NCBI GenBank assembly: GCA_038087875.1
Contig: CM075988.1
Coordinates: 11,038,001 to 11,102,000 of the forward strand
Reading direction: 5' to 3'
Source: Malacoraja senta
Lineage: Eukaryota
Length of the DNA: 64,000 nucleotides
The notes beneath the pieces are model-generated. The model was not told the origin of the DNA. It was given only the letters and a program-made list of their open reading frames with translations, and made no database searches. This document shows, piece after piece, positions 3,457 through 61,482 of the stretch. Position numbers and translations under genes: made by a program. Numbering within the stretch: the first letter of the stretch is position 1; every line of letters begins with the position of its first letter.

Positions 3457-3551
3457 GTCTGGAGAAGGGTCTCGACCCAAAACATCACCCATTCCTTCTT
3501 TCAAGAGATGCTGCCTGTCCCGCTGAGTTATTCCAGCATTTTGGGTTTATC
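3457..3551 (+). mobile_element. Penelope-derived pLTR repeat with decayed hammerhead motif
   Basis: CTGGAGA-AGGGTCTCGACCC-AAAACATC followed by the family body GAGATGCTGCCTGTCCCGCTGAGTTA. Confidence 0.75.
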
Positions 3552-4421
3552 TTAAGGACAAAGGACAAAGGACATTTATTGTCACATACACCAATTGGTG
3601 TAGTGAAATTCGACTTGCCAATGCAGCACATGAATAAAGATAATACACAACATTAAAGAATTTAACAGAATTTAACAATAAACATAAAAACATCCCCCCA
3701 CAATGGTTCCCACTGTGGGGGAAGGCAGCAAAGCCCAGTCCCATCCCCAGTTCACCCATAGTCGGGGCCTATTGAGGCCTCTGCAGTCGCCGCTACGGCA
3801 TCCCGATGCCTCAGGTCCTCTCGCCGGATGATGGAGCTCTGGCGTCGGGTGAACACTCTCAGCGGCCCGGAGTGTCTGGAGCGGCCGCTTCCTCCCAGTA
3901 GACCGTGGCTCCCGAAGTCCGCGAGCCGCGCTGGTCGATGCTCCGACTTTGGCGACCTCGTCGTCAGATCCCAGGCTCCGCGGTGTTTAAAGTTCAGCGC
4001 CGCCCGCGGCTGGAAGCTCCACCGACCGCAGCTCCACGATGTTGGTGCCGGCGGTCACAGCACTCCGGAGCTTACTGCACGGCGACCCGGGTAAGGCATC
4101 GCCCGCTCCGCGATGTTGCTTCAGCGCTGTGCCGCCGCCGAAGCTGAAGTCCTGGCCGGTCCCGGCAGGAAAACGCCGCTCCAGTCTGCCCGTAGGCCGC
4201 GAGGAAGGGGCGAAGATACGGCTCGGAGAAAAACTGCATCTCCGACCAGGTAGGGACTGAGAAGAATAGTTTCCCCCTTTCCCCACCCCCCACCCCCCCC
4301 CCATAAAAAGACTAAAAGACCTCCAAACAAAACACTTTTAACTAACTAAAAATAAAAAAAGGGTGAAAAGACTAACACTAGCTGCTGGCAGGGCAGCCAT
4401 ACTCGACGGCGCCCCAGGTGG
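3552..4421 (-). mobile_element. ~870 bp GC-rich non-coding retroposon with Rex1/Babar-like 3' end
   Basis: Minus strand ends ...GTGACAATAAA followed by a short TGTCCTT-type tandem tail; 5'-truncated copies at 6079, 10014 and 18026; no credible ORF. Confidence 0.7.
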
Positions 4422-5228: not shown

Positions 5229-5726
5229 CAGATATAGCACGGAAATGGTCCCTTTGGCCCACGGAGTCTGCGGCGACCAGCGATCACCCCGTATAATAGC
5301 ACTATCTTAATTACAAGTTTACATTTTTCAGAACAAATAAAGCACTATCTTATTTACAAGTAGTCATTGCTTTCTCTTTCTTTCCCCTCCCCTTCCCAGC
5401 TCTCCCACAGCCCACTGTCTCTGCCTCTTACTTTCTTCTTCCCGTCCCCCCCTCCCCCACATCAGCTCCATAGATGCTCCCTCACCTGCTGAGTTTCTCC
5501 AGCATTTTTGTCTACCTTCGATTTTACAGCATCTGTAGTTCCTTCTTAAACCTACAAACCTGTACTTCTTTTGAATGAGGGAGGAAACCGGAGCACGCAG
5601 GGAAAACTCATGCAGTCATAGGGAGAACATACAAACTCCATACAGACGCCACTCATAGTCAGAATCGAAATTGGGTTTCTGGCACTGTACGGCAGCAACT
5701 CTACTGATGCGCCACCGTGCTGCCCC
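5229..5726 (-). mobile_element. V-SINE interrupted by a Penelope-like 3' fragment (~5355-5550)
   Basis: SINE 3' half at 5229-5340 and 5' half at 5551-5726 flank a pyrimidine-rich UTR plus the GATGCT..CTGAGTTTCTCCAGCA..GCATCTGTAGTTCCTTC body. Confidence 0.75.
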
Positions 5727-6078
5727 TTAAGACCAATGATGAATTAGCATCCCAGGAACATTCCCAGGAAAATGTTGAATAATTAATAGGCACATACTAT
5801 GCTCCATAGAGCTGACGTAACTTCTCAGCCAAACACTTAAGACTCATGGTAGAGTAAAAAGAAAAGTGAATTCTTTGAAATTTACCTGCAATTCTTTATT
5901 AGAAAATGTATTCAATAGCTTTGTTCTGTATATTTTCCAGATGTTGCCTGACCCATTGAAATACTCCAGCACCTTGTCTTTTTTTTTTAGTAAATCAGCA
6001 TCTGCATTTTCTTGTTACTTCAATAGCTTTAACATCTTATGAAAAGTTTAAAAAAAAAATATATGATATAATTTTTAC

Positions 6079-6203: not shown

Positions 6204-7933
6204 GCTAATCCATGCAGGAATCTTAAATAGATGCTTCACATTGTCATGTGACTGTTGGGACATAGTGTAATGTAAGTTGCATTAACTAATTGTAAATATG
6301 AAAAGGAACATTATGCAAGTATAGGGTTGGATTCGTGCCTCTTGTTGAAGCACATTCACTGAAAATGAACTTTAAATATGACGCTGGTAACAGTGTAATT
6401 TAGTTGAATTTTAAGATGGTGGCAGTAAATAGCACTAACTTAAATTCCAGTTTATTATACTTTTCCCTAGTACTTGAGGCAGCATTGAAAGTAAATGTTA
6501 ATGAAGACATAATGACCCAGATTATTCTGGGGAGTTGAGTTGTCGACATTTTATTCTTTTGGACCTTTCACATGGAACAAAACTAGGAGAACATTATGAT
6601 GGAATGTATTGGCCTATTAATTATTTTGTTCAACATTTTCTTGGGAATTTAGTGCTTTGATTCATCATTACCCTGACCAAAGCAGTTCATGTTTTTAATG
6701 TTGGTCTACAGTGAATTCAACATTGGACACATTTTTTCCTGCTATTAAAACCATTTTCAGAACATTGTCATAATAGAGAAGAAATAATGTAAGTAGTTTT
6801 TGCATGATACTGAGTTAAAAATGGTAAATCAGATGATTACTTTTAACCAAGTTTTTAGTGAAGCAGAAATTAATTGTGAACATAAAGAATAATAGTTTGC
6901 TTTCTGAGCATAACTCGCTTTCACTGAGCCCAAAACATGTTGAAGTGAAATGTTGGAAGGTCAGCTAAGTATTGCTTTTGGCTAAAAATCAATATCGATT
7001 GGAAAAAGTCTCTTTATTTACCGATTATTGATCCAATGAAAATTAGCTTCTGAGAAGTTGCTGTCTCTGTAAAACGTAGTTATCAATGGAATTTGCAGTT
7101 CAAATGAAGCTCCATTTGAAGCTCTAACGTAAAGAGTCTTCAATGATACCAGTACTTTATCTTCATTTAAAATAAAAAAGAATGAAAATTGCATTCCAAA
7201 GTGAGTTGTTTTGAGTTCCCAGCATCAAGCTGGAATCCCAACCCGAAAAGTCACCTATCCATTTTCTCCAGAGATGTTGCCTGACCCGCTACGTTACTGC
7301 TGTAGTTTGTATCTGTCTTTAGTACAAGCCAGCATCTGCACTTCCTTTTTAATACATTATATAATTTATTATATTCTTTTATTGGCTTTTTGGTTCAGTT
7401 GCTTCTTGTCAATATCCTGCTTTGCTGTCTAAATTCAATGAATGGACAGACCTATTATGATTAATTTAATTTTTCTATTTACAGATGTTGCCCATTTTGC
7501 CAAGTCTTTTCAGCCTTTTTCCATCTTTAACCAGGCTGTGACTTGGCATGTTCACAGACAAAATATGTAACCGATGTGAAAACTACCAATGTGGTTTCCC
7601 ACTCTCTATAAAATGCTTAGCATTGACTGCAATATGTAGGCTTAGGTTGAGCATTAGCCATATTTTGAATTGACACAGGATTGTGAACAGGACAGATTCC
7701 ATGACTTGTATGCATGCATCAACTTCAGAAACAGCACCATGCCTGTGAAGAATCTGGATAGTTTGATGGAGTCTTGTGAAATATCCAGGCTATTGCATAG
7801 TGGGTGCCATACATGGAAGAAAAAATATGTTCTTGCAGCAGTAAGGCAAGGCCGACCGTGAAAGCCAATTCATTGGCCTTGCTCATGCTGAAGTATCACA
7901 GATAGATATTTTAAAGCTTTAAGTTTGAATTAA

Positions 7934-8368: not shown

Positions 8369-8392
8369 ATCCTAAGATTCCATGCATTATGA

Positions 8393-16827: not shown

Positions 16828-17948
16828 AATATGTTTCTAAATAAAGATAATGATGGTGTTTAATTCTCTATGTGGTCTATTTATGCATTGGTTTTATTTG
16901 GGTAAGAAATTGCAGTTCTTTCAGAAACCGATAAATTCTTTAAAATGTTCATTAAAAATGAATGGTAAATTTCTGAAAGGATTTATTACATATTGTTATT
17001 GACCAACTGACTACTGTTAACCTCATTGTATTGACCTTCTCAAAAGTTTAAAGCCTTATTATGCAAATAGATTGTAATTTTGTGTGGAACAATTATTTCT
17101 TTAAAAATTCAACAGAAAAAATAGATTATTGTCTACCTGGAAATGATTGAAAAGCTGAAATGAATCTGTGTTAAGGCAGCACCTTAAACTGTGACACCAA
17201 AGCTTAGGTAATCTCTGTATCTTCTTTGAATTTGAACATTAGATAGTTGTCTTAAATGCTGGTAACTTTTGTATCTTTTTTTTAATGGAGTGATTTGATT
17301 TGATTCTACCAAATAGAAAGCTATAGTTGGGGATATGATGGTGGAGTACTTCAAATTATGTTTTCAATTATTGTTAATATATCACTAATTTATTGGCAAC
17401 TGGGCTAAATATATGCAATGCAAGAACATCCTCGGTTATGCATGCAAATGCATCAACATTCTCCGAGGAGGAAGTAACTCGCTAGGGGTTGTAATGACCT
17501 TATGCAGCTTGAGCAAGAAAACTCAAGTGATTCATCAATGTCATCTCAGTGCCCCAGGTGAATTATTGACTTGGAACTATGTACACATTTGCTGTTTTTA
17601 CTGATCCATTGCTGCATGATCTGGTCTTTCTCCTTCCTTTCCTCCATTCTGCAGAGGAATAAGATGATTGATGGTACACTGCCGACTCATCTGAGCAAAT
17701 CATATAATCAGAAGTGAAGTTACATTAGATTTCTTTTCATTTATGTTGGAGCAAGGGCACATCAAAACTTATATATAATGTTGATATGCAATAGAACCCT
17801 GCAACATGCATATTTGGAACAAAGCTGTTCAGAAATGAATCATCCACATCACATTCGACAAATCTTATTATCATTCCCAAAAGAGCTCCAAACTTTCCTA
17901 GTTAGATTTTTATTTTTTGTTGTGTGGTGAACATTCACATTTTCTCAA

Positions 17949-18646
17949 ATAGACATCCCTAAAGCTGGAGTAACTCAGTGGGTCAGACAACATCTCTGGA
18001 GAAAAGGAATAGGTGATGTTTTGGTTCAAAGGACAAAGGACATTTATTGCCACATACACCAATTGGTGAAGTGAAATTTGAGTTGCCATTTGCAGCACAC
18101 CAATAAAATAAACACAACGTTAAAGAAGTATTTAACATTAAACATAAAAACATCCCCCCACGATGGTTCCCACTGTGAGGGAAGGCAGCAAAGTCCAGTC
18201 TTCTTCCTCTTGTTCACCCGTGGTCGGGGCCTATTTGAGGCCTCTGCAGTCGCCGCCACGACGGCCCGATATTTTAGGCCCTCTCGCCAGATGATGGAGC
18301 TCCGGTGTCGGAAGAACACTCTTCAGCGGCTTGGAGTGTCTGGAACGGCCGCTTACTACTGGAGACCGTGGCTCCCGAAGTCCACAGGCCGCGCTGGTCG
18401 GAGCTCCAACACTGGCGATCTCGGCGAAAGATCCAAAGCTCCGCGGTGTCTTACTTCTGACTGAGAGTCAGGGGAAAGGGAAATGAGGAAGATCATAGAG
18501 ATAGATTTCCCTAACTCTGTCTGAAGAAGTCTCCAACCGGAACATCACGTATTCCTTTCCTCCAGAGATGCTGTCTGACCTGCTGAGTTACTCCAGCTGT
18601 TTGTGTCTATCTTTGGTTTAAACCAGCATCTGCAGTTCCTTCCTGC
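17949..18646. mobile_element. Palindromic Penelope-derived insertion containing a nested retroposon (18026-18450)
   Basis: Inverted arms ~17949-18025 and ~18540-18610; 18 bp TSD with 2 mismatches at 17931-17948 / 18647-18664. Confidence 0.8.
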
Positions 18647-20914
18647 ACATTCAGATTTCCTCAACTTGAGCATCATTTAGAGACCACATCGACACATGCT
18701 GTTCATGAGTGAATTTACCCATTCATGAATACCTCAGTGCTGATTATCCTTTCATCAGTATTATGTCTATTGTTTACTTCAAATTGAAACAAGGCCAAGG
18801 GAACATAATCTCCTCTCTGCTTGCTTAAGATTAGTTTGCTTCTAATAGCATTTAATATTACTGATTAAATTTACAACTGTGAGTTTTTCTCCAGTAGATC
18901 CAATAGTTATTTATGCATTAAAATAATGTTATTCATTTAACGGTGAGGAAAAAATATATATTTGCATCTCCTGGATGATTTAGTGTTTTTTAAATTGAAT
19001 TGTCAAATAATTTGGTCCAATATAAGTTTAGTTCAATTTAATTTATAATGACATAATGTGACCAAGACAGTGAGGCAATGTGCTGAAATCTTTGCGAGAA
19101 CAAATGTCTCATTATTATTAAAAAAAAACAATTCATAAAATATTTATTGGCTCTCTGTGCTGATGCAATCCTCCCGTTTCTGGGAGTCTCTTGAAGATGA
19201 AATATGTTTTTGAGGATGCTGTGTTTGACGCATGATGGCATATGGTCTCATGAATACTGCCTGATGTGAAGTAGGACCATATGATTCAACCATTGTTTTT
19301 GCCAGGTGGTAGTGGAGATGAGTACGTGAACAACAAATTAACATGGGTAGTGGAGCTTCACCAGTGTACTTGATACCACACTTGACAGCACAGAACATAA
19401 CAGGATGAGCGAGTCAATAAGCCCTTTTTAATGTCTGAAATGTTGCAAGAAATATGTTGCGATCACCAAGGAACCAAAAATGGTTTATCTTTTAACAAGG
19501 TGATAGCAAAATTAATCTTTTGTTTTTGGTATTTAGGGAGTCTTCATTTCAACTAATAAATCCAAATCTGCATTGATTTTGAATTAAGTTTCCGAATTTA
19601 TTTTGCATCTGAACTGGCTGCTGGAAATCTACCTCTGATGTTAAATTCTTTGGGAGAAAATGTGTTCAGGGCACACATAACAGCTTTTATTAAAAAATTA
19701 TAATTCAAAATTGGCCACTATTTTGTATTGTGAATTGATGCACTAAACAATCCTCCTTGGAGGCACGCTATATATTAGATATGGGAAGTTTGAGGTATTG
19801 TTCAAATGCTTATCTCCAGGTATGTTTTTTTTGTGTCAGAATAGGGGATGCTTTTACCTTTTTTTCTGTGACTGCTCTGGCAGAACTGGATGTGGGTGAC
19901 AGTTTTGTGGTCTTCCATTTTAAAGCAGAGGATATTCTATTTCTTGATTACAAAATTATTACTGAAGGAATTCTGCTCCCTTATATAACAAGTTATCTTT
20001 CCACTGGGAAATGTGCTTGGTTGCTGTAGCTTCCTAATTAAATCTGTGGTCTGATGCCAAACATTTGGTACTACATCTAACGATATTCAGAATATCAACC
20101 ACAAATGATATCCTATTCAGCACAATGCTCTCTGTAAGCATGGAGGATATTTCTATAGATTCAATGCAGTATTTATATTTTGAAGAATACTTCAGCTATT
20201 CACGTTTAGATCTGCTTCATTATCTGATTCCATTTAAGTGCGTGAATTCTAAATCAATGTAGTATTTTCCAATTTAATTGCTAAATGCAGGAAGAGTGGT
20301 TTTGGTTTGAAATCTGCTGATGTGAAAACGTGGTTCAACCAAGCGCTGCATTAATTGTTTACAGATTATTTATTAGTCTTGCTGCCCATGTACAAATGCT
20401 GCCTGCATCGAGCGGTCAGGAAGGAAGTTTAACTTTAACCTCCAATGACAAGTGAGGACAATGTTGCTTGGTGAGGAGCTCCAACTGAATTACTGCATTG
20501 AACTCAAAATTGTTTTCACTCTAATCTTGGATGTTGTCAGCTTCCTGTGGATCTCTTCCAGAAGGTCAGAGAAAACAAAGAAAAAGATGTGCTCTGTGAG
20601 TCAGATGTATTGTGAAGGAATTGCTGGAGCCAGTTGGAACCACATAGCTTGCTAAATTAAGAAGACACCAGCCCATTGAAAACATTTCCCAGACAACGAG
20701 AGGCAACAAAATAACTTTTATTTCCTGATCGTGAAAGGAAGCTTTAACTCAGTAATTGGTGCCTGACGACACATAGCTTTGATGCCATCTTGAGGAGCTG
20801 TCAGCATTTCCAGAAGACTGGGGCAGCCAAGTGTGGGATGTTATCCTGGCACCAGTAGTTATTCACTTTGCCAACCCTCTTTCACTCTAAAAGCTTTCAT
20901 TTCTCATCTCCCTC

Positions 20915-21146: not shown

Positions 21147-21524
21147 AACATCACCCCATCCCCACCAAGAAATTGTTGAAATAATATCACCAGTCAACAC
21201 AGGGTGCACAAGATACTTGCTTTTTCCTCTTGTTTGATTGATGTTTTTCATTTTTATTTATGAATTTGTCTTTCAGCTCCTTCACAAAGAATTTCAGAAT
21301 TGAGAGGGTACAGTAATCAATGGTGGTAATATTGGTTTGTTATTCCAAATGTTTGTAGTAATGATCTAGAGTCATTAACCTAGGAAACAGTTGTGGAATT
21401 TAAAGGGAGACGGAAAGCATTAACTCAACATCTCAGGAGAACATGGATTGGTGAGTTTTGGGGCTGCGCCCTTCAGACTGATTGTAGCGGGGGGAGAAAG
21501 CTGGAAGAGAAGAGGGGCAGCACA

Positions 21525-22100
21525 AAGAGAGACAAAAAAAGTTGGAGTAACTCAACGGGACAGGCAGCAACTCTGGAGAGAAGGAATGGGTGATGTTTTG
21601 GATCGAGACCCCTCTTCAGACTATTTAACACTACAAATAAGCTCTAAACTACATGGACTTGGGGGCATTGATTTTGGCATGGACTTGGCAACACCAAACC
21701 TGGCAGGTAATGGGTTGATACAGGTTGGTGTGAGTTGGGGGGGGGGGGGTGTTAATGGGCTATGGTTGGGGAAAGGAGGCCAGAGATAAAGAGACAGGTG
21801 TGACACAAAAGGATTGAAGCATTGGGCATTGTGAAACTAGAGGAGGGAAGAAATAGCTATGAATCAGGTGGAGTACAGGGGTGGAAGGGAGGGAACAAAT
21901 AGGAGGTATATGGGAGAAAAAAGGAGTGGGGCAGGGTTATATAGTTATTTAAATTGGAGAATTCATTGTTCATAACGTTGGGTTAGGTACCAAAACAGAA
22001 TATAAAGTGGTATTCTTCCAATTTGCATGTGGCCTCACTCTGGCAATGGAGAAGGTCTGGGACAGAAAGGCCAGTACAGGAATGGTAAGAGGAGTTCAAT
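21525..22100 (-). mobile_element. Penelope-like element 3' fragment: GIY-YIG C-terminus, UTR and pLTR with hammerhead remnant
   Basis: Minus 22100-21945 reads NSSYHSCTGLSVPDLLHCQSEATCKLEEYHFIFCFGT*PNVMNNEFSN; downstream at 21622-21525 lies GTCTGAAGAGGGGTCTCGATCC-AAAACATC plus the family body. Confidence 0.8.
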
Positions 22101-22165
22101 TGTGGAATTTTATGGTAGTTTAGTTTATTACATGTATCCGAATGGAAAGACTACTCTATGTAATG

Positions 22166-22376
22166 TGGAGGAAGGATTTGCAAATGCTGGATTAAACCAA
22201 AGATAGACACCAAAAGCTGGAGTAACTCAGCAGAACAGGCAGCATCTCTGGAGAGAAGGAATGGGTGACATTTTAGGTCGGAGTCTGAAGAAGGGTCTTG
22301 ACCCAAAACATCATCCATTCCTTCTCTGCATAGATGCTGCCTGTCCCACTGAGTTACTCCAGCTTATTGTGTCTAT
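22166..22376. mobile_element. Palindromic Penelope-derived mini-element
   Basis: ~80 bp inverted arms around GTCTGAAGAAGGGTCT; perfect 15 bp TSD CTACTCTATGTAATG at 22151-22165 / 22377-22391. Confidence 0.88.
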
Positions 22377-22699
22377 CTACTCTATGTAATGGTACACATG
22401 CATTATGGATTGTTCTATAAACACATCCAATTCTTTCATGTGCTTTTGAGATAGAAATTGGCCAATCTTGCCAAACTCTATAAAAGAAACACTGCAGATG
22501 AATGCAAATGTTCTGGGTCTATTGGAATGGGAAGAGACTGGTGAACCATTCCATCCTACTACAACCCACCATTAGATCATTTCCTTTACTCCATATTCAG
22601 GGGGATACTTGCCCAACAAGGACATCTGAAAATTTAGCACTGTAAACATAATGCTACCCTCATAATGTGTCCTGATCAAAGGTGTGGAGAAGATAAACA

Positions 22700-22938
22700 C
22701 AAGATGGTGGTTTACCCCAAAGATAGACACAAAATGCTGGAGGGCAAAACTCTGCGGGTCTGGCAGCAAAACTGGAGAAAATGTGTAGGTGACTTTTCAC
22801 ATCGGAACCCTTCTTCAGATTGCTAGCCTCGAACATGAAACATCACCAATTCTTTTTCTACAGAGATGCTGCCTGTCCTGTTGAGTTACTTCAGTTTTTT
22901 GTGTGTATAAACCAGCATCTGCAGTTCCTTCCTACACA
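22700..22938. mobile_element. Palindromic Penelope-derived mini-element (older)
   Basis: Diverged inverted arms; degenerate direct repeat GGTGT(G/A)GAGAAG on both sides. Confidence 0.7.
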
Positions 22939-24104
22939 AGGGTGTAGAGAAGTTCACATGTCCTTAATCAGAATTTCAATCCCTTTGAGGTGACAGACCT
23001 TTTGCGATTTTGCTTTACTTTCAAGCATTTCCACAATCATTTACTGAGCCATCTAGCCATCCAAGTTCCACTGACTTTCCATATTTCCGAGTCATGGATG
23101 AATTTCCCTTTCCCTGCTCCTAAGATGGATGTACTTGTGCCTGCCCACGAGGAACTCTCAATGTTTTTGACTAGTTTTAAATATTTGTCCCTTTTGGAAT
23201 ATTCCCTTGTTTGTCATGCCTGTTTTTTGTGAGATCATTAGATGGCTTCTACACAAATCGCTGCCTTCCCTCGTATAAGTCTGGAACTCATTTGGGGGGA
23301 AAGCCCAGAGATTCCATTGCATGCACTGTGGGGAAGACTGTCATATTCTGCCAATAACAGAGTGCTTAATTCCATCTCACTCTGACCTCTAAATCTCACC
23401 CTTGCCAACATATTTGATCCAAACGTTCTCAAATGTTCCCAAAACTCCACGCAAGCTAAATTTTCTATCTTTCATGGGAGCAATAGCCCTAATATTTCAA
23501 TTAGATTTCAATTAGGTTGCCGATCACAAATTCACTTTGTCAGCCTTCCTCCTGCCTAAGTCAATACCAGATCGAAGATTAAATATAAGATGCTGTATAG
23601 CTTTGCAATTTAAATTTTTCATGAGGTGAACGGAAAAACCATTTCAAAGTCAAAGGCAGAAAAAAAGCACAAAGTAATTTATTACTAAGATAGCTTGTGA
23701 ACATGCAGGCCATCAGTAATAATTCAAGCTTGTTTCCATGAATTAAAATGCTCCCTTGTGGAGTAGAGAAATATTAATAGAGCAAATCCTCAGCTCCAAT
23801 GCCAACACTTCTATTACTTGTCCATGTTCCTCTGAGGAAACCACACCAATGTAGAGTAAAGCTGGTGACGGTCTCTTCTTCACTTCTGTGTCTGCTGCTG
23901 GTTGGTCCTGCATTATTCAGGTGGAATTCCATATTTGTCGAGTGGCGCAGTGGGAATTTCAATGGGCTTCCCAGCCTCCTCACAAGAAATCTGACTGCAA
24001 AGCCTCTATCAGTTCAGTAGGTCTGGCAATGTCATTAACATAAATGGGAACAAATTACTTTCCGAACAACTCTAAGGAGACCTCTTTAATTTTGATTGAA
24101 AGAT

Positions 24105-24915: not shown

Positions 24916-26038
24916 CTGTCATTCTTGCTTCATTCTTAAATTAAAATTACCTTTTACTGTTTTTCCAACAGCAAGTTTACATTTAATGAAAGGTTGTTCT
25001 ATTATCCGCTGTACCCAGTTCCTTATGAGAACACATCCATAATGCTCGGTGTATAGATTGACTGTCTTTCTGTGACATCACATCTGGAGTACTGTCATGC
25101 TGAGAACTCTAAGCCGACTAGAACATGTTTTAACTTAAATTCATAAAAGAAACGTACGAGCATCATTCATTTTCAGATGGAAGGCAAAAATGGTCACAAA
25201 TACTGCCTGGTTACCAATGGACCTAATAGGATTTGATGACTCAAATTGTTTCACCATGCAGAGAATAGTGATGACTTGAAATTAAGAAAGGAATGCCAAG
25301 GATTGGAATTGTGGTAAAACTGAGGGAATAAAACAAAGTAACTGCTTATTACTATTTTAGGAAAATCTGACATTCTTTGGCAAGAAATAGTTAAATACAT
25401 GAGTTGACACCATTAAAAGAGGATGTAATTAGCATCTAAGAGATATTAGGGGTTATGGATATTAATAGCACCGCTTGACTTTTTTGATGAGCCAAATGAC
25501 ATTTTCCGACTGCAGATTTAAATAAATTACAGAGTGCTGTGGTAGCTAGTTTCTATGAAAATGTCGAAGGCTTCATGTAACTGTGCACTGATGATCATGC
25601 TTTAGACAGCAGATTTAATTAGGCTATTCGGAAAGCAAAGATTGATTAAAGTATCACTTTATTCCGAAATTCCGAAAGAGCTATTTAGAAATTGTAATTC
25701 AACTCCTATTTATTTAAATATAAACAGAGTCTTATGTTGATGCATAAATGAGTCTTCATCTTGCACCTATGTAACTTTGCTGGTTCAAATTACCAGCACT
25801 CCTTGATGAATACAGTTGCAAGAATTAGTTGAATAGTTATTCATCAGACATGAGTGGAATTTACAATACCAACTATTTGTTTGAGTTATTTTAGCAGTTC
25901 TGCTCACTGCGTGCATCCTGATTGTTTATTTGACACAAGTTTGAAGAAATACACCTTTGGAAATCATTAAATACATTTCAGAAAGTTATACTTGATCTTT
26001 GGGTGTTTTTCTTTAACAGAGAAGTGCCAATGTCGATA

Positions 26039-26226
26039 GACACAAAAAGCTGGAGTAACTCAGCGGGTCAGATAGCATCTCTGGAAAAATTCTGGAGACC
26101 CGAAGAAGGGTCTTGACCCAAAACGGCACCTATTCCTTTTCTCCAGAGATGCTGTCTGACCTGCTGAGTTACTCCATCTTTTTGTGTCTATCTTCGGTTT
26201 AAAGCAGCATCTGCAGTTCCTTCCTA
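26039..26226. mobile_element. Palindromic Penelope-derived mini-element
   Basis: Inverted arms; CCGAAGAAGGGTCTTGACCCAAAACG core; 12 bp TSD CCAATGT(C/A)GATA at 26027-26038 / 26227-26238. Confidence 0.82.
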
Positions 26227-27047
26227 CCAATGTAGATAATTACTCAAGAGATGAAGGCAAATTGCAGCATTGTTGCTTGCGAAGGTAAATCTAAATCTGA
26301 TGTCAGTCAAAATGTGATACAGAACTCTTCAGACTACATGCACTTTGCTCACTTTCAAATATGTTTTACTTTAAGAATTCGAGTACAGCTCTCACCATGA
26401 GAATCAGACCAGGGGATACAACACATCAAACCCACACATTAAAATAGTTTGCTGGAGGCACCTCACTTTACATGGCATCCCAGCAGGAAGTGTTTGACTG
26501 AACTGACAGATTGGATATCCAAATGTGAGCATTTTCATTTCATACAAAAGTAAGGAGGTGATTTTCATTTGCTGCTTATATTGACATAAATTGATTACTG
26601 AGCCTGAAGAACATGAATACGTTGTCAGAAAATGGGAGGTTGGAGCTAGGGCATTCAAATCCTCCACTCAATTGTGCAATTCATGTCCCCTCTGAAGCTC
26701 TGCAACACATATCCCTACTGTATAGAAATTGCCAACCATAACCCAAATGATTGATTGTCATGTTCCTCCAAGTGCAAAATGTGATGCATGATTAGATATT
26801 TAAATTACCATCATGTTACACTTGCAGATGAAGCTGTTTGGTGTATATGCTCCATCAAGGTGCATATGTTTTGCCTTTCCAGTGTTGAAGGGACATAAGA
26901 GAGAGTTTGCGGCTGGTCACAAAGTGAAATATCTGGCGAGTTCAATCTGTCACATCTGTTTCTGGCAACTAAGGTGACGGGGGAACGATTATATCGGAAT
27001 ATGAGGGTGGTGGGTGTACGGAACGAGCTGCCGGCGGAGGTTGTTGA

Positions 27048-33031: not shown

Positions 33032-34494
33032 CTGCCAACAAAGGCCTCTCTACTGTTAAAGCCTTTTGTATTGATTTAAATGGTTGGAGATAATTAAATA
33101 TTAAAATGCATTTAAACAATTAAAATTAGTTCAAGGTACAATTTAAAAGATTTTCAAGTACCAACAAAAAATTGAAAGTCGCATCATGATTCAAACACCT
33201 GCCTTACGTTATTTTCCACCTGTTCTTTGATCCTGTTCAAATGAGATGGGTTTGCGCTCATCTGCCAGTGTTGATGTGAAACTGAGGGGTCAGATACATC
33301 TCCTCTGCCTGCCACTATATTCAGGCCACCGCTAGTTTCTGCACTGAATCCACTGATAGAGCTGAAGGCAGATGCGCCTGCTTTTGACCCTCTATCTTTC
33401 ACATTTGTGGAACAAGCAATTTGAACAAACAACTAAATGGCTGGCAACCGACATATCTCTGTGGAATCAATGGCTGTTCATCAACTCAATTTGGCTCCAC
33501 ATTTGTCATTTGGCCAATGAATGAAACTGTGTGTGATGTATCTTTGGCTGTTGGTACAGGTTTTTTATTAACTGTCTATAACAAGCCCAAAATCATACCC
33601 AGCCTTGAGCTGGAACATAAATTGGACATTTTACCGAACTATTTGCAATGGCCATCCACTTTATACAGGTTAATGGAACGCTTTAGCTGCAAGCTTGCTT
33701 TGCTTGTCGAAAAACTGCCAGGAATTAGCAATGTTCTTGACCTAAAATCTGTCATTATAATGGAAATTATTATTCCATGCTGTAAACCAACTGCCACGCA
33801 TGATAAAACTCTCTGGACTGGCAGCACATGAAAGCTGTTTGGTTCATCTTGTTGCGAAATGGTAATCAAATTGCTGATATGGTATGAAACTGCAACTTGA
33901 AGCTTATTCAGTTTCTCATTGCCATTTAGGAAGTTTCTTGGAGTTTATCCAGCTAAGGTTCTTCCTCATACAAGGTGCAAGCTGCAAATTATATCACCAG
34001 TGACCCCCTGCATCCCAGTTGTACACTTCATGAAGAATTAAGTTTAATTTGTACTGTTTCACACAGCTGCAACTGTCTTGTCACAAATGCAGTGCTAATA
34101 TGATCCGTTATGCCCTGGATTGAATTTTAAAGATGGTTGTATAACACTCATTGAACATAATCATTGCTGGCACTTCGGGCTTGGAAAAAGGTCGTAATCA
34201 GCTGCAAACCTAATAAACTGGACAGATGTGCTGATAATCGTGGAGCAAAATAAAAATAAAACTACTGGTGCAACCCAGCAGGCTGGCAGCATCTATGGAG
34301 GCCATGGCAGAGTCAATGTTTTGGGCCAAGTCTCGGCATTAGGACCACAAATAAATCTGGTCAAGCCTACATAATCTGTGCTTAGAATTTCTATGTTTGA
34401 CTGTAATTGAAGCCTTCCTGTAAGCAGTGTACTGCAGTTATTGCACCCATTGTATGTTCAGGGATGATAAATTTCTTTGAGGTTTCATCATAAA

Positions 34495-37775: not shown

Positions 37776-40730
<2,955 letters not shown>

Positions 40731-44465: not shown

Positions 44466-46495
44466 AAGTGTGATAACAATGCTTGACGTACACACAAGTC
44501 ATGGGGTGTCTGATGAGATCCTTGTGCTTGGTCAGATGACGGCCAGTTTGAATGAAGGACTTGTTGAAAATCTCTGTTTGTGAATGAGACCACTTTCTTT
44601 ATGGGGGTCACAATTTACAGAGGATAGGGATTGATGCAGTGAAGTATTAGACGCAACACCTAAAATACAACCGTTGTCTGAAGGTGAAGATGAACTTGCG
44701 CAAATAAAACATGCTTGAAAGAAAGTCAATGCTTGTAGTTGGAGGAAGCTATCAAAGTGACGGGGTCCTTTATTATATATTGACCATTTTTTTGAGAAGG
44801 GAAGGGTAATTAAGTTAATTAAATGAAAGTTAGTGTTTTCACTTACTGTCTATTAATTAAAGCACTTAATGAATGATACCCAATCTTGTTTCACCAATCA
44901 TTGCAGTGAATCAAACTCAAATCATGAGCGGTGCCACACAGTTAGAAATCTGGGCTATGATAACATAGGTTGATATTGTGCGGAACCTTGAATAAATGGT
45001 GTGCAAACTTTATAACTAACCTGCAATTGCAGTGTTTGGACACCTTGGGTGTGATCTCAATTTAGAATGTATCAAAAATTAAAATTATTAAAATTAATTG
45101 TTCAACGCTGATTCTTATGTCAAACATCTTTTTCATCTGACAATATTAATATATTTGGTATTCCTTCCTCACTAATCTAGTTAGCTTATTCTTTTTAAAA
45201 ATGCTTTGAAACAATGTCGGACTTAAGGTCCAGACAAGGGGCAACATTACATAAAAATGCATTGCATATTAAAAACATCATAAACTACATATAAAATGTT
45301 AGTATATCACTTATAAAAGCATCATAAATTATATATTTAAAAAAACAACACAATACATGAATTAAATTCCAGAATAAAAGAATGATCAATGTCCTACAAC
45401 GAGACAACGATACCAGTATACCAGTGTCCCCACAGCTGGGACTAGTAGCATGTAGTTCTAAACCTTATGTTTGACAAGGCCACAATAATCACATTTTTAG
45501 AGTTATTTATCCTGCAAATTAATTTATACATATGATTTCTTAGGATAGCTTCTAAAGTACAGACTCCTGCAGCCACAAACATGTTGCTAGCACCACACCA
45601 TCTAGGTTTCCTTAGCAGTGTTCTCATGGCATCATTATATGACACCTTTAGTCTCTGCAAACTTGTCTTTCCGTAGTTCGACCACAGGTGCGCAGTATAG
45701 AGTGGTGTGCAGTATGCTCTAAATAGCCACATCTTCACCACATCTGTACACGCACCAAACTTACGCAAGAGAGTATTCGCCTGTACATACGGCAATCATC
45801 GTTGCCTATAAATATCCTCATCATCTGTCATTTGTTCTGTAATAAAATGCCCTAGATATTTTACCTTATTACAGACACTAAGATTATTGTCAGACAATTT
45901 AAAATCAGGAAATTTTAGACATTTATCCTCTTTGCTTCTACAGATCATAACAGCACTCTTACAAGCATTATATTTAATATCATGTTTCACACCATACACA
46001 GAACATATAGTAAGGAGTTGCTGGAGACCAGCGCTAGATGGACTAAATACCACAAGATCATCTGCATACATAATATGGTTCACTAAAGTATTACCTATCA
46101 TGCACCCAGTATTACAGTCATTCAATTGTTTGGACAGATCATCAATATAAAGATTAAAAAGGACTGGGGACAAAATTCCCCCTTGTCTAACACCATTGCT
46201 AACCCCAAATGGGGCTATTGCCCCATTTTATTTGCATAGTCTGGTGGGCATACCAGTAGGCCAGAATTCTCACAATGTATTTAGGCACCCCTCTTTGACT
46301 CATTTTAACAAACAGCTTTCTGTGATTAACATGGTCAAAGGCTTTGGAAGCATCAATAAAGCACATAAGGATTGAAGAGTTTTTGCCTCTATATTTGTTT
46401 ACAATCTCCTTTAGGGCATATATGCATAAGTCAGTGCCATGTTTAGCTTTAAAACCAAATTGGTTATCTGTGGAGTTAACAAACTCATTTATTCT

Positions 46496-46545
46496 GAGGA
46501 AGGGTCTGAAGAAGGGTTTCGGCCTGAAACGTTGCCTATTTCCTT
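46496..46545 (+). ncRNA. Minimal type I hammerhead ribozyme motif
   Basis: Helix I GAGGAA-GGGU / GCCU-AU-UUCCUU, core CUGAAGA(A) at 46506-46513, helix II GGGU-UUCG-GCCU, GAAA at 46526-46529, palindromic AACGUU helix III, predicted cut after 46533. Confidence 0.65.
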
Positions 46546-46599
46546 TGCTCCATAGATGCTGCTGCACCCGCTGAGTTTCTCCAGCATTTTTGTGTACCT
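46496..46599 (+). mobile_element. 104 bp Penelope-derived insertion
   Basis: Perfect 11 bp TSD TCATTTATTCT (46485-46495 / 46600-46610); removing it restores the host RT frame VLERVLRDRINEFVNSTDNQFGFK. Confidence 0.92.
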
Positions 46600-46954
46600 T
46601 CATTTATTCTATCCCGCAGAACTCTTTCTAAAACTTGTTTCCAATTTTGACCATTCTCTGGAAAAAATAGTTTACTTCTGAATTCCACGTGGATTCACTT
46701 ATGTGCTGCTTATTTTGTGAGATCCACTCACAATTCCATACATCTGCTCCACACCTGTCTTATCATGATGTCACAATCAGAGTTGGCCTTCATCTAATTT
46801 TGTGAAGAGCCCAAGTCTATTGAATTCTTCCTGAGAGCTTTGGCTCTGATATCTTTCTCAGGAATTTGGTTTGCACCTTCTCCAGTACTTTGAGGTTATA
46901 ATTCCTTTGAAAACAGAACTGATCACAATAGTCTATAGAGTGACATAATTCAGG

Positions 46955-47163: not shown

Positions 47164-48197
47164 GTCCCATGAGCTTGCTGGCAACATGTACTTGTATATT
47201 AAATAAGCCCACGCTTCTTTCCCCATCTACAAAGAGTTAAGTTTAAAAACTAAGTTTCTTCCCTAATGCTACAAACAGGGGTTAGTCATTGCACTAGGAG
47301 CCGAGCTATTCTCGGTTGTCTTTTGAAAAACCAAGTTTATCTTTGCTTATTACGATAGTTTCTTGCAGCCTCGTGACCTAGAGCCTCATGGACTATAGGT
47401 TTCAAGGCTTCATGATTAACTTGTTTTTCTAAGTGAGCCACTTGCTTGCTTGCTTACTCAGCTTGGGTGCTATTAGCTGACAAGTCCATTTTGGATGAAA
47501 ATTGTGTTTTAATGGGGCGGTTGGCAGTAGTGGACCAGGCACGTTGAAACTCAGTTTCCTCCTCCTCTGCATTTCCCTTTGCCTCTGCGACAATTTTTTT
47601 TCTTCTGCTGCTCTGTAATGCTGTGGTATCCACACCAGTTTTTTCAGCCAGATCTCTTCCGAATGCCGCAGAATTTAAAACAGAGAAAAATTAAAGGAAC
47701 ACGGAGATTTCTAGATAAGCTGGAAGATGCATATTTGTCACAGACAGATATGTTTGTGAAAATGTAGGATTTGGAAATAAATTATTTTGTTTTTCTTTTC
47801 AATATTTGTCCCAAATATTCCAAAGGACTTGGTTATCTCTGTCAAGTGTAATTGATTTTCATAGCTTAACATTTAAGATAAAGAAAACAAACTACTTTTT
47901 CACTCCAGTTCACTGTCTCAAAATGTCACCGTTATGCTTGTTTTCAGTACAGTGAGAAAAAGCAATGGCCTCCAGGTGTGTACCAGTGACTTGAGTAATC
48001 TTATGTTAGTTTTTCTGAGCTTGGAGCTTGGAACTGATTTGGTCTTTCTTGAGTTTATTAAAATTATTTATTTAATGCAGCAAATGGAATGAGTCTCACT
48101 ATTTAAATGCAAGTCTATTTTAGGGTCCTACCAGTTCCGGTCAATAGTTGAACATGGGTTTCGGCATAAAGAATGCAGCTCTAGCCCATGAGCAAAA

Positions 48198-48336
48198 ATG
48201 TGTAGGAAGGAACTGCAGATGCTGGTTTTTTCAGACTGCTGTGTCTGAAGAAGGGTCTTGACCCAAGACGCCACCCATTCCTCTTCAGAGATGCTGCCTG
48301 TCCCGCTGAGTTCCTCCAGCATTTTGTGTCTATCTT
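48198..48336. mobile_element. Penelope-derived insertion with inverted 5' segment
   Basis: TGTAGGAAGGAACTGCAGATGCTGG (inverted end), then GTCTGAAGAAGGGTCTTGACCCAAGACG plus the family body. Confidence 0.8.
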
Positions 48337-48514
48337 CTGCATGAAGTTGTGGAAACACCATCTTATAAATGAAAAGAAACAATTATGCCATATTACTGTA
48401 TTAAAATCACATTTTTAAATCGGGCTGATAAATAAGGTATTTATTAAAAGCAGGTAAAAAAAAAAACCAAGGACCATTGTTACTAATGAGTAGAAAGATC
48501 ATTTTTGTTTTCAT

Positions 48515-50124: not shown

Positions 50125-50508
50125 TCTAGATTCAGGAACAGTTTCTTCCCAAGTGCTATCAGGGAACGGAATCACCAACTGGACAGTAGTCTTAATTTAC
50201 CATCCACCTCATTGGAGACCCTCGCATTATCTTTAATCAGACCTTACTGGACTTTATGTGTATGAAAGAACTGTAGATGCTGGTTTAAACCAAAGATAGA
50301 CACAAAATACTGGAGTAACTCAGCGGGACAGGCAGCGTCTCAGGACAAGAGAAAGAATGGGCTTTATCTTGGACTAAATGTTATTCCCTTTATCATGTAC
50401 CTACCCACGGTAGATGGCTTGATTGTAATCATGTATAGTCTTTCCACTGACTGGATAGCATGCAACATAAAAAGCTTTTCACTGTACCTAGGTACACGTG
50501 ACAAACTA
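50125..50508 (+). mobile_element. Rex1/Babar LINE 3' end with a nested Penelope-derived insertion (50258-50360)
   Basis: SRFRNSFFPSAIR ORF end; CTTTAT duplicated around the insertion. Confidence 0.75.
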
Positions 50509-54582: not shown

Positions 54583-55476
54583 TTAGGTTCAATGATGTGG
54601 TCTCTGACTCAATATAACAGTGAAAGTAGGTTTCCCCAATGAGAAAGTGGGCCAAACATTTTCAAGTGACACACAATGCAGACACAGGGATCTAGCTTGA
54701 AGGGATAATTTGCATGTAACAGGATAGTTTAAGACAAAAGAGTGTTTCTCTTTCAGAAAATAAATCAGAATTGTGCAAATCAGGATAAAAACAAATGTCC
54801 CACTAGAAACTCCTCTTGGTGATGCCCCTCCCTCTTCCAATCCCCCCTGTGGTAAGCTAGAAGACTGAGGCAGCAGGGATGATTGTAAGGTAGTCCATGC
54901 AGCCATCTCTGTCGCAACCGGAACCTGGATTTGGGCAAGACGATGATATATGGAAGAAATACACGGTGAGGGTGAAGGGAACTGGAAGAATTAAATAATA
55001 GAACACATCATAAGTGATATGGAAGGCCCCCAGAGCAGTGCAGAAATTGGAGGAACCATGCTTGCTCCTCGTATTAATGCTCCTCATATGAAATGCCTTC
55101 ATGAACAGAGGGGTGCTTTATGCATAAGGCCACTCGACTCCAAATATAAGGCTATGGTCTGTAAACCCAGTGAAAATCATGCAAGGAGGTTGATGTGAGA
55201 AGCGACTGATCATGTAGCTTCTCATCTTAATAGAGTAGGAGTATGTGGTACAGAATGGTGAGGTGGATGGACGTCCTTTCCCTTGAAGTGAAACATTGAT
55301 GGAATAAATATGTTTCATTTTGCCCTTTGAAAAAACACTGAGTGACTCCCTTATACAATATCAGTACCAATGAGGAATGTTTTGGTTAGTAAATCTGTCC
55401 AGCGGTCAAGGTGTTACTGGGACCAATTACGGCTAATTGGATCAGTGCGAGAGGAAAGCTGACCAGAGGTTGCAAC

Positions 55477-55632
55477 AAGATGCTGGAGTAACTCAGCGGG
55501 TCAGGCATCATCTCTGGAGGAAGGGAATATGTGATGTTTTGAGTCGAGACCCTTCATCAGACTGAGAGCCAGGGAAGGGGAACCTTGAGTTATGAAAATG
55601 TGCCTTCAGCATTTGCAGTTCCTTCTTACACA
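55477..55632 (-). mobile_element. Penelope-derived insertion with CTGATGA hammerhead remnant
   Basis: Minus strand GTCTGATGAAGGGTCTCGACTC-AAAACATC; inverted end CAGCATTTGCAGTTCCTTCTTACACA. Confidence 0.78.
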
Positions 55633-55795
55633 GATGTAGTAACATCCTAACTTAGTGCAAAAGACTCTGGGCAAAAAGTTCACATGTGTAGACATTGGAT
55701 ACTGACAGAATCAGATCTGGTGGTCTAGTATCAAGTAATTTCTCACAATGCAGAGCTGAAGTTTGTATCCAAAAACTGTTTGCCATCACAAGGTA

Positions 55796-58770: not shown

Positions 58771-58849
58771 CAAAACTTCAGTGTGACTTTTTTTCCAGAG
58801 CAGGCTCTGCACTGAAACTGAGAACCAGCCAAGGGTAGGTTTCTTTTAA

Positions 58850-59020
58850 CATCTCTGGAGAAAAAACGATGAGTGACCTTTCGGGTCGATGTCGGAAGAA
58901 GGGTCCAGACCCAAAATGTCACCCATTCTTTTTCTCCAGAGATGCTGCCTGACCTGTTGAGTTACTCCAGCACTTTGTGCCTATCTTTTGTATAAACCAG
59001 CATATGCAGTTCTTAGTTTC
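58850..59020. mobile_element. Partially palindromic Penelope-derived insertion
   Basis: Perfect 14 bp TSD TAGGTTTCTTTTAA (58836-58849 / 59021-59034); inverted 5' arm plus decayed hammerhead core. Confidence 0.88.
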
Positions 59021-59169
59021 TAGGTTTCTTTTAATTTGGTTATTGGCTGGTTCCCATATTGGTTACCAACCCTTGCTGAGAAACTAGCTGAGTGTAGAAA
59101 TTGATTATTTAAAGCTCCAAACATTGATATAATCAATGAGTGATATCCTCTGCAAATTTGGCAGCAATT

Positions 59170-59652: not shown

Positions 59653-61406
59653 CAGCCCTTCTAGGAATATTTAACAAGATAGCCCAGCAGAAGCAATAAA
59701 TGTTTTGCCTGCCACGGAAGGGGGAGAGGGAGACAGAGAGAGAAAGATTCAGCAGGGAAAGAAATAAACTATAACTATGAGCTGGACATTTGGGTTCAGC
59801 AAGCACATATCAAGAGGATGATGCAATGCTCAGGGAAATCAGGAGGTCTTCAACTAGAAGTTTGTGGGAGGAGTGAAAGGCTGACCTCCAGGAGTGAATA
59901 GCAAAGAACATGGGACTGTCCAAAAAAACCCATGATCTCAGAATATTATGAATGAATTGCAGTAATTTAACCACCTCCACAAGAATACTCTGAAAAGCAG
60001 ACGTGCCATACATGAGTGCATATGCGAGGTCTTTCAAACCATGGAGCCAATTGATTAACAATATTAGCAGTTAACTGCAATAATTCTTCTGGATTTCAAT
60101 ATTTTAAATAACCGCAAAATGGTGGGATAGTTGGGAAAGTGGGTCCTGAGGAGTTCTGGATCTTACAAGGCTCGATAAGAAGATTAAAAAAAGATTAGAA
60201 GTTCATAAGGCTGCTTTCAAACATGTGTAACTAAAGCAGAGGAATAATTAACAAAACCAATCGAACAAGATGACAAACATTCCTACCCACCCCCCTACTG
60301 TAGTCCCAAAGTAAAACGGAATACAAATTGGAGATGGTATTTTGACCATATTGAGTTCTGTTAGCCCTGGTGGTGTCATAGATAACCAGACAGATAGTCT
60401 TGCTGCCGATGAAACACTCAAATACCAGATGATGTTGGAAGGTCCATAGAATTCTCCAGGGTTATGTATTTGAGTTATGAAACCGTAGATTTTCATCTTA
60501 TAAAGGAACAATGGAGTAGTGAATTTGTGAGTTGTGAATCATTGGACAACATATCAATTTGGCCTGCATTGTCCAGGGGGAGAGAGTGTGGATGGTGAAT
60601 TAATTATGATTTGCACTATAGATTTTCTCAACCGTAATTATCTTGTGTTTGAAGATTATAATTTTTTTAAATGATATAGTTGACAAGAAAATCTAGTGTT
60701 TTGATCAAAATGATCATGAGTATATAAAATACCAGCTAGCATCATTTTTACTAAATTAATTAGTTCAGGATAATTGAGGTAATTGTTAAATCTGTTGACA
60801 TGTAATATAACCCCTCTGCTCCTTTGGAGACAGCTCCACTGAATTAATGAAAATGTTTAATAGAAGTTGAAATTTCTTATTATTGTTCACTTATTGCTTT
60901 AAATTGCACATTGAATCCATCTTCAGGGGAATGAACAAGTTATTTGACATCAAACACAGTTATTAATGTAAATATTTCAAAGAATAAGCAGAAGAACAAA
61001 ACATGCCTTAATTGAATTTAGGATGGTCTCATTCACATCATCTTCCCTGAAGGCCGGAGTCAGTTCCATATGTATTTATTAAATTGTGAACCATGAACCT
61101 GCAACATATTTCCCTGCTGAAGGCAATTTAATGAAGTTAAGTGAGAGTTTAATTAAGTCATGCAAAAGATTGTGGATATGTTTCTGTTTTCAATAAGTTA
61201 GTATTAAATATATAATTGATTTGATTAATTCTGCCTCTTTACAATGTTGGCTCCAATTGTCATGGCTGCAGCTTTTGTTTTTTTTCCCCTCCAAGGTAGC
61301 AATCTTGCACCAAAACAATGCAGAAAGTAGGTTGCTATAATTTAATTAATCATATTGTTGCATACATTGGGCCAGATAGCATTGATCCCAGCCTGCTCCT
61401 CACAGA

Positions 61407-61482
61407 ATCAGTCTGAAGAAGGGGCCCAACCTAAAATGTTGCCTATCCGTGTCCTCCGGAGATGCTGCCTGATCCTTTGAGC
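61407..61482 (+). mobile_element. Penelope-derived pLTR fragment (older inverted piece at 61650-61780)
   Basis: TCAGTCTGAAGAAGGGGCCCAACCTAAAATGTTGCC..GAGATGCTGCCTGA. Confidence 0.65.

What the first reader, a model, noticed from the sequence alone, without database searches (positions are those of the whole stretch)
22151..22391. Family of short palindromic, TSD-flanked, hammerhead-bearing retro-insertions
Seen: about 15 related copies in 64 kb (3457, 5355, 7230, 17949, 21525, 22166, 22700, 26039, 46496, 48198, 50258, 55477, 58850, 61407). Many are fold-back structures with the ribozyme core at the loop. TSDs are variable in length and sequence (15, 18, 12, 11, 14 bp). Inversion breakpoints differ per copy, so each palindrome appears to form during insertion. 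They look like MITEs but have TSDs typical of retrotransposition. Inference: either 5'-truncated PLE insertions with template-switch inversion, or a non-autonomous retrozyme-like RNA mobilised by a Penelope RT/GIY-YIG protein. Either way they seed long dsRNA hairpins.
Basis: partly seen in the sequence, partly recalled or inferred. Interest (0 to 1): 0.7.

Follow-up and report, generated by a model that had tools for sequence, protein, structure and literature searches.

The report
Fold-back stumps of Penelope retroelements
These short mirror-image insertions in a shark- or skate-like genome are old, mostly dead end-pieces of a known kind of jumping gene (Penelope-like), and the way their two halves start and stop suggests the enzyme copied its RNA from both cut DNA ends at once.

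Summary
Real, but a known kind. A ~135-nt unit (minimal hammerhead, body, ~35-nt tail) occurs as 25 arms at 18 loci. Seven loci are head-to-head fold-backs; 9 of 18 have 10-18 bp TSDs, two backed by empty-site tests. One copy ends a broken GIY-YIG endonuclease gene related to whale-shark Penelope-like (PLE) proteins. Inverted pLTR + tail + TSD + minimal hammerhead is the published PLE insertion layout. Not a MITE. Not a retrozyme: no tandem arrays. One clade for fold-backs, or a short-versus-linked split, is rejected (AU p 0.018, 0.004). Corrections: only 2 of 19 arms keep the linear ribozyme core, and 22151 has lost G12. Transcription is unshown. Of interest: 3' ends fall at two sites, one arm per fold-back carries the tail (7 of 7), two fold-backs have non-overlapping arms, and 9 of 25 arms start at the hammerhead's 5' edge, not its cut site. 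This fits priming from both target ends on an RNA that starts there (inferred). The scan found this kind before in other shark-like genomes.

The parts
22151..22165 (+). left TSD copy (15 bp)
   Evidence: exact repeat of 22377-22391, p<0.0002
22166..22281 (-). tail-bearing arm, about u10-17 to u131; 4 nt of the TSD continue the tail
22282..22376 (+). tail-less arm, u0 to u94, starts at the hammerhead 5' edge
   Evidence: 67 of 78 identical to the other arm
22285..22312 (+). decayed minimal hammerhead: first core box intact, G12 and G16.2 changed to A
22377..22391 (+). right TSD copy
21953..22099 (-). broken C-terminal end of a Penelope-like GIY-YIG endonuclease (one in-frame stop)
   Evidence: phmmer hits at 57% and 51% identity; 41%, E 9e-10 to P0009, which has RVT_1 + GIY-YIG; tblastn hit by 33 matches from the homologue set
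21421..21952 (-). pyrimidine-rich 3' region and own decayed pLTR (21421-21480) of that ORF-linked copy, interrupted by a second copy
21523..21622 (-). single short arm (u1-99) nested in that 3' region, with ~75 nt of unassigned sequence upstream
   Evidence: nesting read by inspection
17931..18664 (.). fold-back with 18-bp TSD; both arms reach 13-30 nt into the upstream UTR; minus arm split by a 420-bp unrelated repeat
22677..22952 (.). fold-back with 16-bp TSD; arms only 64 of 98 identical
26027..26238 (.). fold-back with 12-bp TSD; arms u45-91 and u5-128
48197..48340 (.). head-to-head pair with disjoint arms (u104-135 minus, u1-97 plus), 7-bp palindrome at the junction, no TSD found
55464..55644 (.). 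head-to-head pair with disjoint arms (UTR to u87-91 minus, u108-133 plus); doubtful 14-bp TSD
58836..59034 (.). fold-back with 14-bp TSD; arms u16-54 and u1 to about u128
46485..46610 (+). single arm with 11-bp TSD inside a LINE RT frame; the only arm with full core plus helix II
50248..50367 (-). 5'-truncated arm with tail inside another repeat; empty paralogues at 16632 and 20944
61396..61530 (+). single arm with 14-bp TSD
5911..6030 (+). 5'-truncated arm with tail, 12-bp TSD (duplicated at about 9850)
5355..5550 (+). arm with ~110 nt of pyrimidine-rich UTR, hammerhead deleted (duplicated at about 9290)
3457..3553 (+). single arm u1-99, 3' end abuts the 420-bp repeat
7236..7350 (+). single arm u14-128 (duplicated at 11171)
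34246..34334 (-). old diverged arm
   Evidence: E 1.5e-9
61706..61770 (-). old diverged arm
   Evidence: E 1e-5

Best explanation
They are short, dead insertion products of several subfamilies of an endonuclease-bearing Penelope-like retrotransposon, probably Neptune type, in a cartilaginous fish. The unit is the pLTR (beginning with a minimal hammerhead) plus the ~35-nt tail. SHOWN: PLE origin, staggered-cut insertion with variable TSD, head-to-head arms, two 3' end positions, no single fold-back lineage, decayed ribozymes. INFERRED mechanism: the PLE protein cuts both target strands 10-18 bp apart. Each DNA end primes reverse transcription inward from one of two internal start sites on the element RNA (end of pLTR about u97, end of tail about u133), and the two cDNAs are joined in the middle. 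Many cDNAs run off at an RNA 5' end just before the hammerhead, so they are only 100-135 nt long. The fold-back is therefore built at each insertion, with the tail on one side only. The ribozyme is a passenger, not the maker of the ends.
For: Endonuclease link. TSDs at 9 of 18 loci, 10-18 bp. Removing insert plus one TSD restores a LINE reading frame at 46496 and matches two empty paralogues at 50258. 3' ends: 10 of 25 at u91-101 and 11 of 25 at u125-133 (hand-curated list; raw profile ends 8 and 12). Exactly one arm bears the full tail in 7 of 7 fold-backs (75; 0.5^7 = 0.008 if independent). The u91-101 end is also used by single TSD-flanked copy 46504. Arms are not nested in 4 of 7 and disjoint in 2 of these. 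9 of 25 arms start within about 8 nt of the hammerhead 5' edge without upstream UTR (binomial 1e-7 to 1e-4 by assumed range); 0 of 25 profile ends lie at the cut site. AU tests. Literature: both strands cut and extended, two internal RT starts that delimit the tail, predicted dimer, ribozyme not needed in vitro (PMC11167929); inverted pLTR, tail on one side, 8-10 bp TSD (PMC3846280; PMC8557442); minimal hammerheads 100-700 bp apart on opposite strands (PMC4209133).
Against: No full-length element or genome was available, so where the RNA starts is not shown. Only one locus links to the ORF and two subfamilies to a long UTR; the subfamily of 22151 has no linked member here. Non-nested arms could come from later deletions at unstable palindrome centres. 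The two disjoint cases lack a firm TSD, and the tail arm of 48197 looks like an internal deletion next to a 7-bp junction palindrome. Two of 7 fold-backs are nested, and the short arm of 58850 ends at u54, at neither site. The in vitro data are from a Poseidon-clade element and report no homology at initiation, while junctions here share 0-5 nt with the unit (partly circular for 17949). The tree has no starred branch, and the groups were tested after a first tree was seen.
Confidence: 0.62

Rival explanations
1. Same PLE origin, but the second arm is made by fold-back self-priming or a template switch of one nascent strand (or on an antisense template, as proposed for rotifer PLEs); non-nested arms result from later deletions.
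For: Nested arms at 26032 and 58850. Short junction palindrome at 48197 (9). Inner ends near helix II in three fold-backs. The two arms of an element are nearest neighbours in 3 of the 5 fold-backs with both arms in the table (22151, 26032 minus arm, 58850). Self-priming is proposed in PMC3846280.
Against: Does not explain why the tail-less arm stops at u91-101 in 5 of 7, the same end that single copies use, nor the disjoint arms at 48197 and 55475 without extra deletions.
Confidence: 0.2
2. At least one subfamily is a self-propagating non-autonomous short element (SINE-like or retrozyme-like) that borrows the PLE protein.
For: Short copies far outnumber ORF-linked ones (1 of 18 loci reaches the ORF). 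5' ends cluster sharply. The 22151 group has no UTR-linked member in the window. Retrozymes are reported in one chondrichthyan and derive from pLTRs (10.64898/2026.07.22.740005).
Against: No tandem units. 5' ends are not at the cut site. Short-versus-linked split rejected, p-AU 0.004, and one fold-back clade rejected, p-AU 0.018. In PAc about 55 nt beyond the RT start are needed on the template and are not copied (read), so stumps should be unable to move again (inference across clades).
Confidence: 0.12
3. The 5' clustering reflects a 3' splice site (pyrimidine tract + CAG) at the hammerhead edge, not a transcription start; templates are spliced or cut there.
For: Four UTR-bearing arms have 70-90% pyrimidines before CAG at that edge. 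In D. virilis the intron 3' end maps to the 5' end of helix I (PMC4209133; intron described in PMC2377424).
Against: The nine edge-starting arms share no upstream exon beyond 1-2 nt (56). This rival concerns only the 5' ends and is compatible with twin priming.
Confidence: 0.2
4. A MITE (non-autonomous DNA transposon).
For: Small palindromes flanked by TSDs.
Against: TSD 10-18 bp and variable, unequal termini, 11 of 18 loci single-armed, link to a GIY-YIG fragment.
Confidence: 0.01

Closest known systems
EN+ Penelope-like element insertions with inverted pLTR and tail (Arkhipova 2013, PMC3846280; Craig 2021, PMC8557442; passages read)
   Same: Head-to-head inverted pLTR, 30-40 nt tail on one side, TSD, strong 5' truncation, palindromes at the junction.
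   Different: Here almost all copies are reduced to pLTR+tail with no ORF between the arms; TSDs are 10-18 bp against 8-10 bp in the rotifer examples.
[quoted passage not shown]
   Same: Extra base between positions 9 and 10.1, G10.1-C11.1, palindromic helix III without a loop, short helix I, many solo copies, pairs on opposite strands.
   Different: Helix I is only 2 bp in the unspliced genomic context (by inspection); nearly all copies here have lost G12 by CpG decay.
PAc (Poseidon of Anolis) in vitro mechanism (Frangieh 2024, PMC11167929; parts 1-2 of 4 read)
   Same: Two fixed 3' ends that delimit a tail; both strands used; AT-rich targets (TSDs 66% AT against 59%).
   Different: Other clade (this one looks Neptune-like through its homologue). 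The text read explains the tail but does not discuss inverted arms.
Non-LTR retrozymes (PMC7229834, passages; Li 2026, 10.64898/2026.07.22.740005, parts 1-3 of 5)
   Same: Type I hammerhead, pLTR-related, long TSDs, no ORF.
   Different: Retrozymes are head-to-tail tandems of 150-450 bp with intact ribozymes that yield circular RNA; these are solo or head-to-head and decayed.
LINE-1 twin priming (recalled, not read here)
   Same: Second target end primes internally and gives a 5' inversion between TSDs.
   Different: In L1 the second priming site is arbitrary and the arms do not overlap; here both sites are fixed and the arms often overlap.

Membership tests
EN+ Penelope-like element | ORF with C-terminal GIY-YIG endonuclease directly upstream of the pLTR | tested here: met
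   21953-22099 matches the C-terminus of P0009 (RVT_1 + GIY-YIG), followed by UTR and a pLTR arm at 21480-21421; one locus of 18
EN+ Penelope-like element | PLE-type RT in the same ORF | tested here: inconclusive
   No convincing PLE RT in the window (one E 0.006 hit near 5300; other hits are CR1-type RT); shown only in the homologue P0009
EN+ Penelope-like element | direct or inverted pLTR with optional 30-40 nt tail | tested here: met
   7 head-to-head loci, tail on one arm each
EN+ Penelope-like element | TSD of variable length | tested here: met
   10-18 bp at 9 of 18 loci
Neptune clade | Zn-finger-like linker between RT and EN; placement in an RT tree | tested here: inconclusive
   Cys-rich linker seen in whale-shark homologues P0006 and P0009 (47); the window fragment does not reach it; no RT tree built
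minimal type I hammerhead | two core boxes, helix II, palindromic helix III, NUH site | tested here: met
   Met in 46504 and ancestrally, since the G12 and G16.2 columns are CpG-decay columns; not met in the 22151 copy itself or in 17 of 19 arms
minimal type I hammerhead | self-cleavage (as a dimer) | not testable with these tools
   needs an in vitro assay
non-LTR retrozyme | head-to-tail tandem of at least two units with complete ribozymes | tested here: not met
   no tandem array of the unit (70, 71); same-strand neighbours are nested or separate copies
non-LTR retrozyme | monomer ends at the cleavage site; circular RNA | tested here: not met
   0 of 25 profile 5' ends at u29-33 (66), one by eye at about u32-34 (50); circular RNA not testable
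non-LTR retrozyme | own lineage apart from autonomous copies | tested here: inconclusive
   overall split rejected, p-AU 0.004 (81), but one subfamily has no linked member in 64 kb (52)
MITE | fixed TSD and fixed terminal inverted repeats | tested here: not met

The most novel reading that the evidence does not exclude
These stumps are a genomic record of how PLEs integrate. A dimer cuts both strands, and each half primes at its own fixed site on the 5' leader of the element's mRNA, so the tail length is the spacing between the two primers. The cDNAs run off at a start site just before the hammerhead, like a strong-stop DNA that gets integrated. This would explain the inverted pLTR and the one-sided tail with one mechanism, and would make 100-240 bp palindromes the main product of PLE activity in these fishes. 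I found no paper stating this in searches.
Probability: 0.4. Interest if true: 0.55.

Novelty: new member of a known kind. Interest (0 to 1): 0.3.

Why it matters
The layout is published and the scan has seen it in other shark-like genomes, so the family itself is ordinary. Its use lies in an open question: papers on PLEs say the origin of tandem/inverted pLTRs is still undefined (PMC8557442). With about 18 loci per 64 kb, a whole genome would hold enough copies to test twin priming against self-priming by counting arm ends. It also warns annotators that MITE-looking palindromes in these genomes are retroelement stumps. A dsRNA role remains possible for a minority of copies but has no evidence here.

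Tried and rejected
No genome is held, so the genome-wide census could not be run. A motif of the unit found 0 matches in metagenome, viral and prokaryote contigs, and P0009 found no related loci in the same three. The first word-based protein search with the window fragment found nothing; the exhaustive search gave 3 hits, of which P0001 is a repetitive spurious match and was dropped. Rfam: 0 at gathering score; one chance ctRNA match at 46510. Sequencing runs: 23 holders in 11 studies, only one with half of the words, no RNA holder listed, which is no evidence on expression. Laying reads from relatives returned no result, so orthologous empty sites are untested. Empty-site search inside the window: 12 loci tried, 1 had empty paralogues (50258), and 1 was tested by reading frame (46496). 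Host gene: 33 + 150 + 71 ORFs scanned against Pfam gave only four LINE RT matches and weak noise; short exons could be missed. The idea that the arms of 22700 come from two different templates is not established (p-AU 0.20). A shared spliced first exon upstream of edge-starting copies was looked for and not found. A cap-derived extra G fits one junction only (22283) and was set aside. A constrained dimer fold crashed; unconstrained folding was used instead. Supplement text of PMC11167929 held no searchable matches (figures not held); bioRxiv supplements of Li 2026, which may list the chondrichthyan families, were not seen. Repbase and Dfam are not searchable here, so an existing name for this family is neither found nor excluded.

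Full report
Setting. The window is AT-rich, repeat-dense DNA with LINE RT fragments. No whole genome is held. The closest named relatives of a protein fragment in it are whale-shark predictions, so the host is taken to be a cartilaginous fish. A skate or ray is my recollection from its SINEs and comes from no call.

The unit. All listed copies share a ~135-nt unit; u1 is the G two bases before hammerhead C3. It has a minimal hammerhead at u3-30, a body to about u97 and a tail to about u133-135. A profile from 13 arms finds 31 arms at E<1 and none in the reversed window. After removing E>0.01 and a 3,937-bp segment repeated at 99.7%, 25 arms remain at 18 loci: 7 head-to-head pairs and 11 single arms.

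The named element. 22151-22391 has an exact 15-bp TSD, a minus-strand arm from about u10-17 to u131, and a plus-strand arm from u0 to u94. The arms are 67 of 78 identical. It folds at -128 kcal/mol, z -13.2.

TSDs. Seven of 18 loci have a flanking repeat at p<=0.011 against 5000 random pairs. An eighth passes with a wider window. A ninth, at 50248, is statistically weak but is confirmed by two uninterrupted paralogues of the repeat it interrupts. Removing the 46496 insert with one TSD restores an open LINE RT frame. Lengths are 10-18 bp. One more is doubtful (55464) and eight loci have none. Variable TSDs, unequal ends and single-armed copies rule out a MITE.

Link to an autonomous element. 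21953-22099 (minus) encodes a broken peptide. An exhaustive search gave two real hits at 57% and 51% identity (a third, P0001, is a repeat artefact). P0003 led to 40 longer relatives. Of 12 scanned, 5 match GIY-YIG (3 at or near the cut-off) and 2 match RVT_1 below its cut-off; P0009 has both. The window peptide aligns to the P0009 C-terminus at 41%, E 9e-10. Downstream lie a pyrimidine-rich UTR and a decayed arm at 21480-21421. The listed copy at 21523 is a second insertion inside that UTR (read by eye). So the unit is the pLTR plus tail of an endonuclease-bearing Penelope-like element. Neptune type is suggested only by the Cys-rich linker of the homologues (criterion from PMC8557442).

The ribozyme. 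Rfam does not detect it. It matches the minimal hammerhead described for metazoan PLEs: an extra base after A9, G10.1-C11.1, and a palindromic loopless helix III (PMC4209133). The G12 and G16.2 columns are CpG-decay columns. Both core boxes survive in 2 of 19 arms, and only 46504 also forms helix II. In the named copy G12 is lost and the 3' half of the core is paired in the long stem. These are fossils of a ribozyme, not working ones.

Lineage. In a 23-arm tree with CpG columns masked, fold-backs fall in several subfamilies and short copies pair with UTR- or ORF-linked ones (46504 with 5466 at 93/94; 7236 with 21474 at 93/46). Two tail-only arms were left out. One clade of fold-back arms is rejected (p-AU 0.018), as is a short-versus-linked split (0.004). 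No branch is starred and I had seen a first tree, so this is moderate evidence. There are no tandem arrays of the unit, which is the defining feature of non-LTR retrozymes (PMC7229834; 10.64898/2026.07.22.740005). The subfamily of 22151 has no linked member in this window, so non-autonomy is not excluded for it.

Ends. 3' ends fall at two places: 10 of 25 at u91-101 and 11 of 25 at u125-133 (my curated list; 8 and 12 by raw profile ends). In all 7 fold-backs exactly one arm carries the full tail. Arms are nested in 2 (26032, 58850), borderline in 1 (17949), offset in 2 (22151, 22700) and disjoint in 2 (48197, 55475). For 5' ends, 9 of 25 start at the hammerhead's upstream edge with no UTR, 5 continue into UTR, 4-5 stop near the helix II loop, and none by profile lies at the cut site. 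At that edge the otherwise unrelated UTRs converge on a pyrimidine tract followed by TCAGTCT. That fits both an initiator (consensus recalled) and a 3' splice site like the one at helix I in D. virilis.

Mechanism. The Anolis PLE protein cuts and extends both strands, starts at two internal RNA sites that delimit the tail, is predicted to be a dimer and does not need ribozyme cleavage in vitro (PMC11167929). Applied here, each end of a staggered cut primes at one of the two sites and copies toward the RNA 5' end, and the two cDNAs meet in the middle. This gives head-to-head arms, a one-sided tail, a variable junction and a TSD. If the RNA starts at the hammerhead edge, the products are only 100-135 nt. 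These steps are inferred. The main rival is fold-back self-priming (PMC3846280) with later deletions; the old, 8-15% diverged copies here cannot exclude it.

dsRNA. Long stems are predicted for 22151, 26032 and 17949 only. No host exon was detected among 254 ORFs scanned, and nothing here shows transcription.

Novelty. Inverted pLTR, one-sided tail, TSD and minimal hammerhead are all published PLE features. Earlier notes of this scan describe the same palindromes and the same 5' clustering in other shark-like genomes (unchecked notes, used as leads). I found no paper joining the two-site, two-strand biochemistry to the inverted pLTR in searches; searches showed none on this family in skates or sharks. 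The library lacks most subscription papers. Verdict: new member of a known kind, interest 0.3; the mechanistic reading has probability about 0.4 and would deserve about 0.55.

Noticed in passing
window 5346-13216: Head-to-tail duplication of 3,937 bp at 99.7% identity: a recent tandem duplication or an assembly artefact. It doubles three copies of the unit.
   Followed up: partly
window 3562-3986, 18030-18450, 6084-6202: A ~420-bp repeat with a short tandem end occurs at three independent places, and all three lie in or within 70 bp of a unit copy. Possible target preference, or chance.
   Followed up: no
window 55692-57299: Uninterrupted 535-codon LINE RT frame (RVT_1 E 1e-33), with a decayed relative at 27300-28290; CR1 type by recall.
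   Followed up: no
window 45445-46800: LINE RT fragment on the minus strand, interrupted by the 46496 copy.
   Followed up: partly
window 57971-58694: Two copies of another abundant SINE-like repeat form a 231-bp inverted pair, 85% complementary and 262 bp apart: a longer potential hairpin than any of the fold-backs. HE1-type SINE by recall.
   Followed up: no
window 37776-40726: 2.9-kb (TC)n-rich microsatellite; a 200-N gap lies at 35538-35737.
   Followed up: no
window 31540-32010: GC- and CpG-rich island with a 43-bp unit repeated 3.4 times; unassigned.
   Followed up: no
window 46496-46504 and 22693-22705: Small re-copied pieces at element ends (u5-13 repeated before the 5' end of 46504; about u87-99 repeated outside the minus arm of 22700) suggest RT jumps at the start and end of synthesis (by eye).
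   Followed up: partly
window 21623-21700: About 75 nt of unique sequence upstream of the nested 21523 copy has no match elsewhere in the window.
   Followed up: partly
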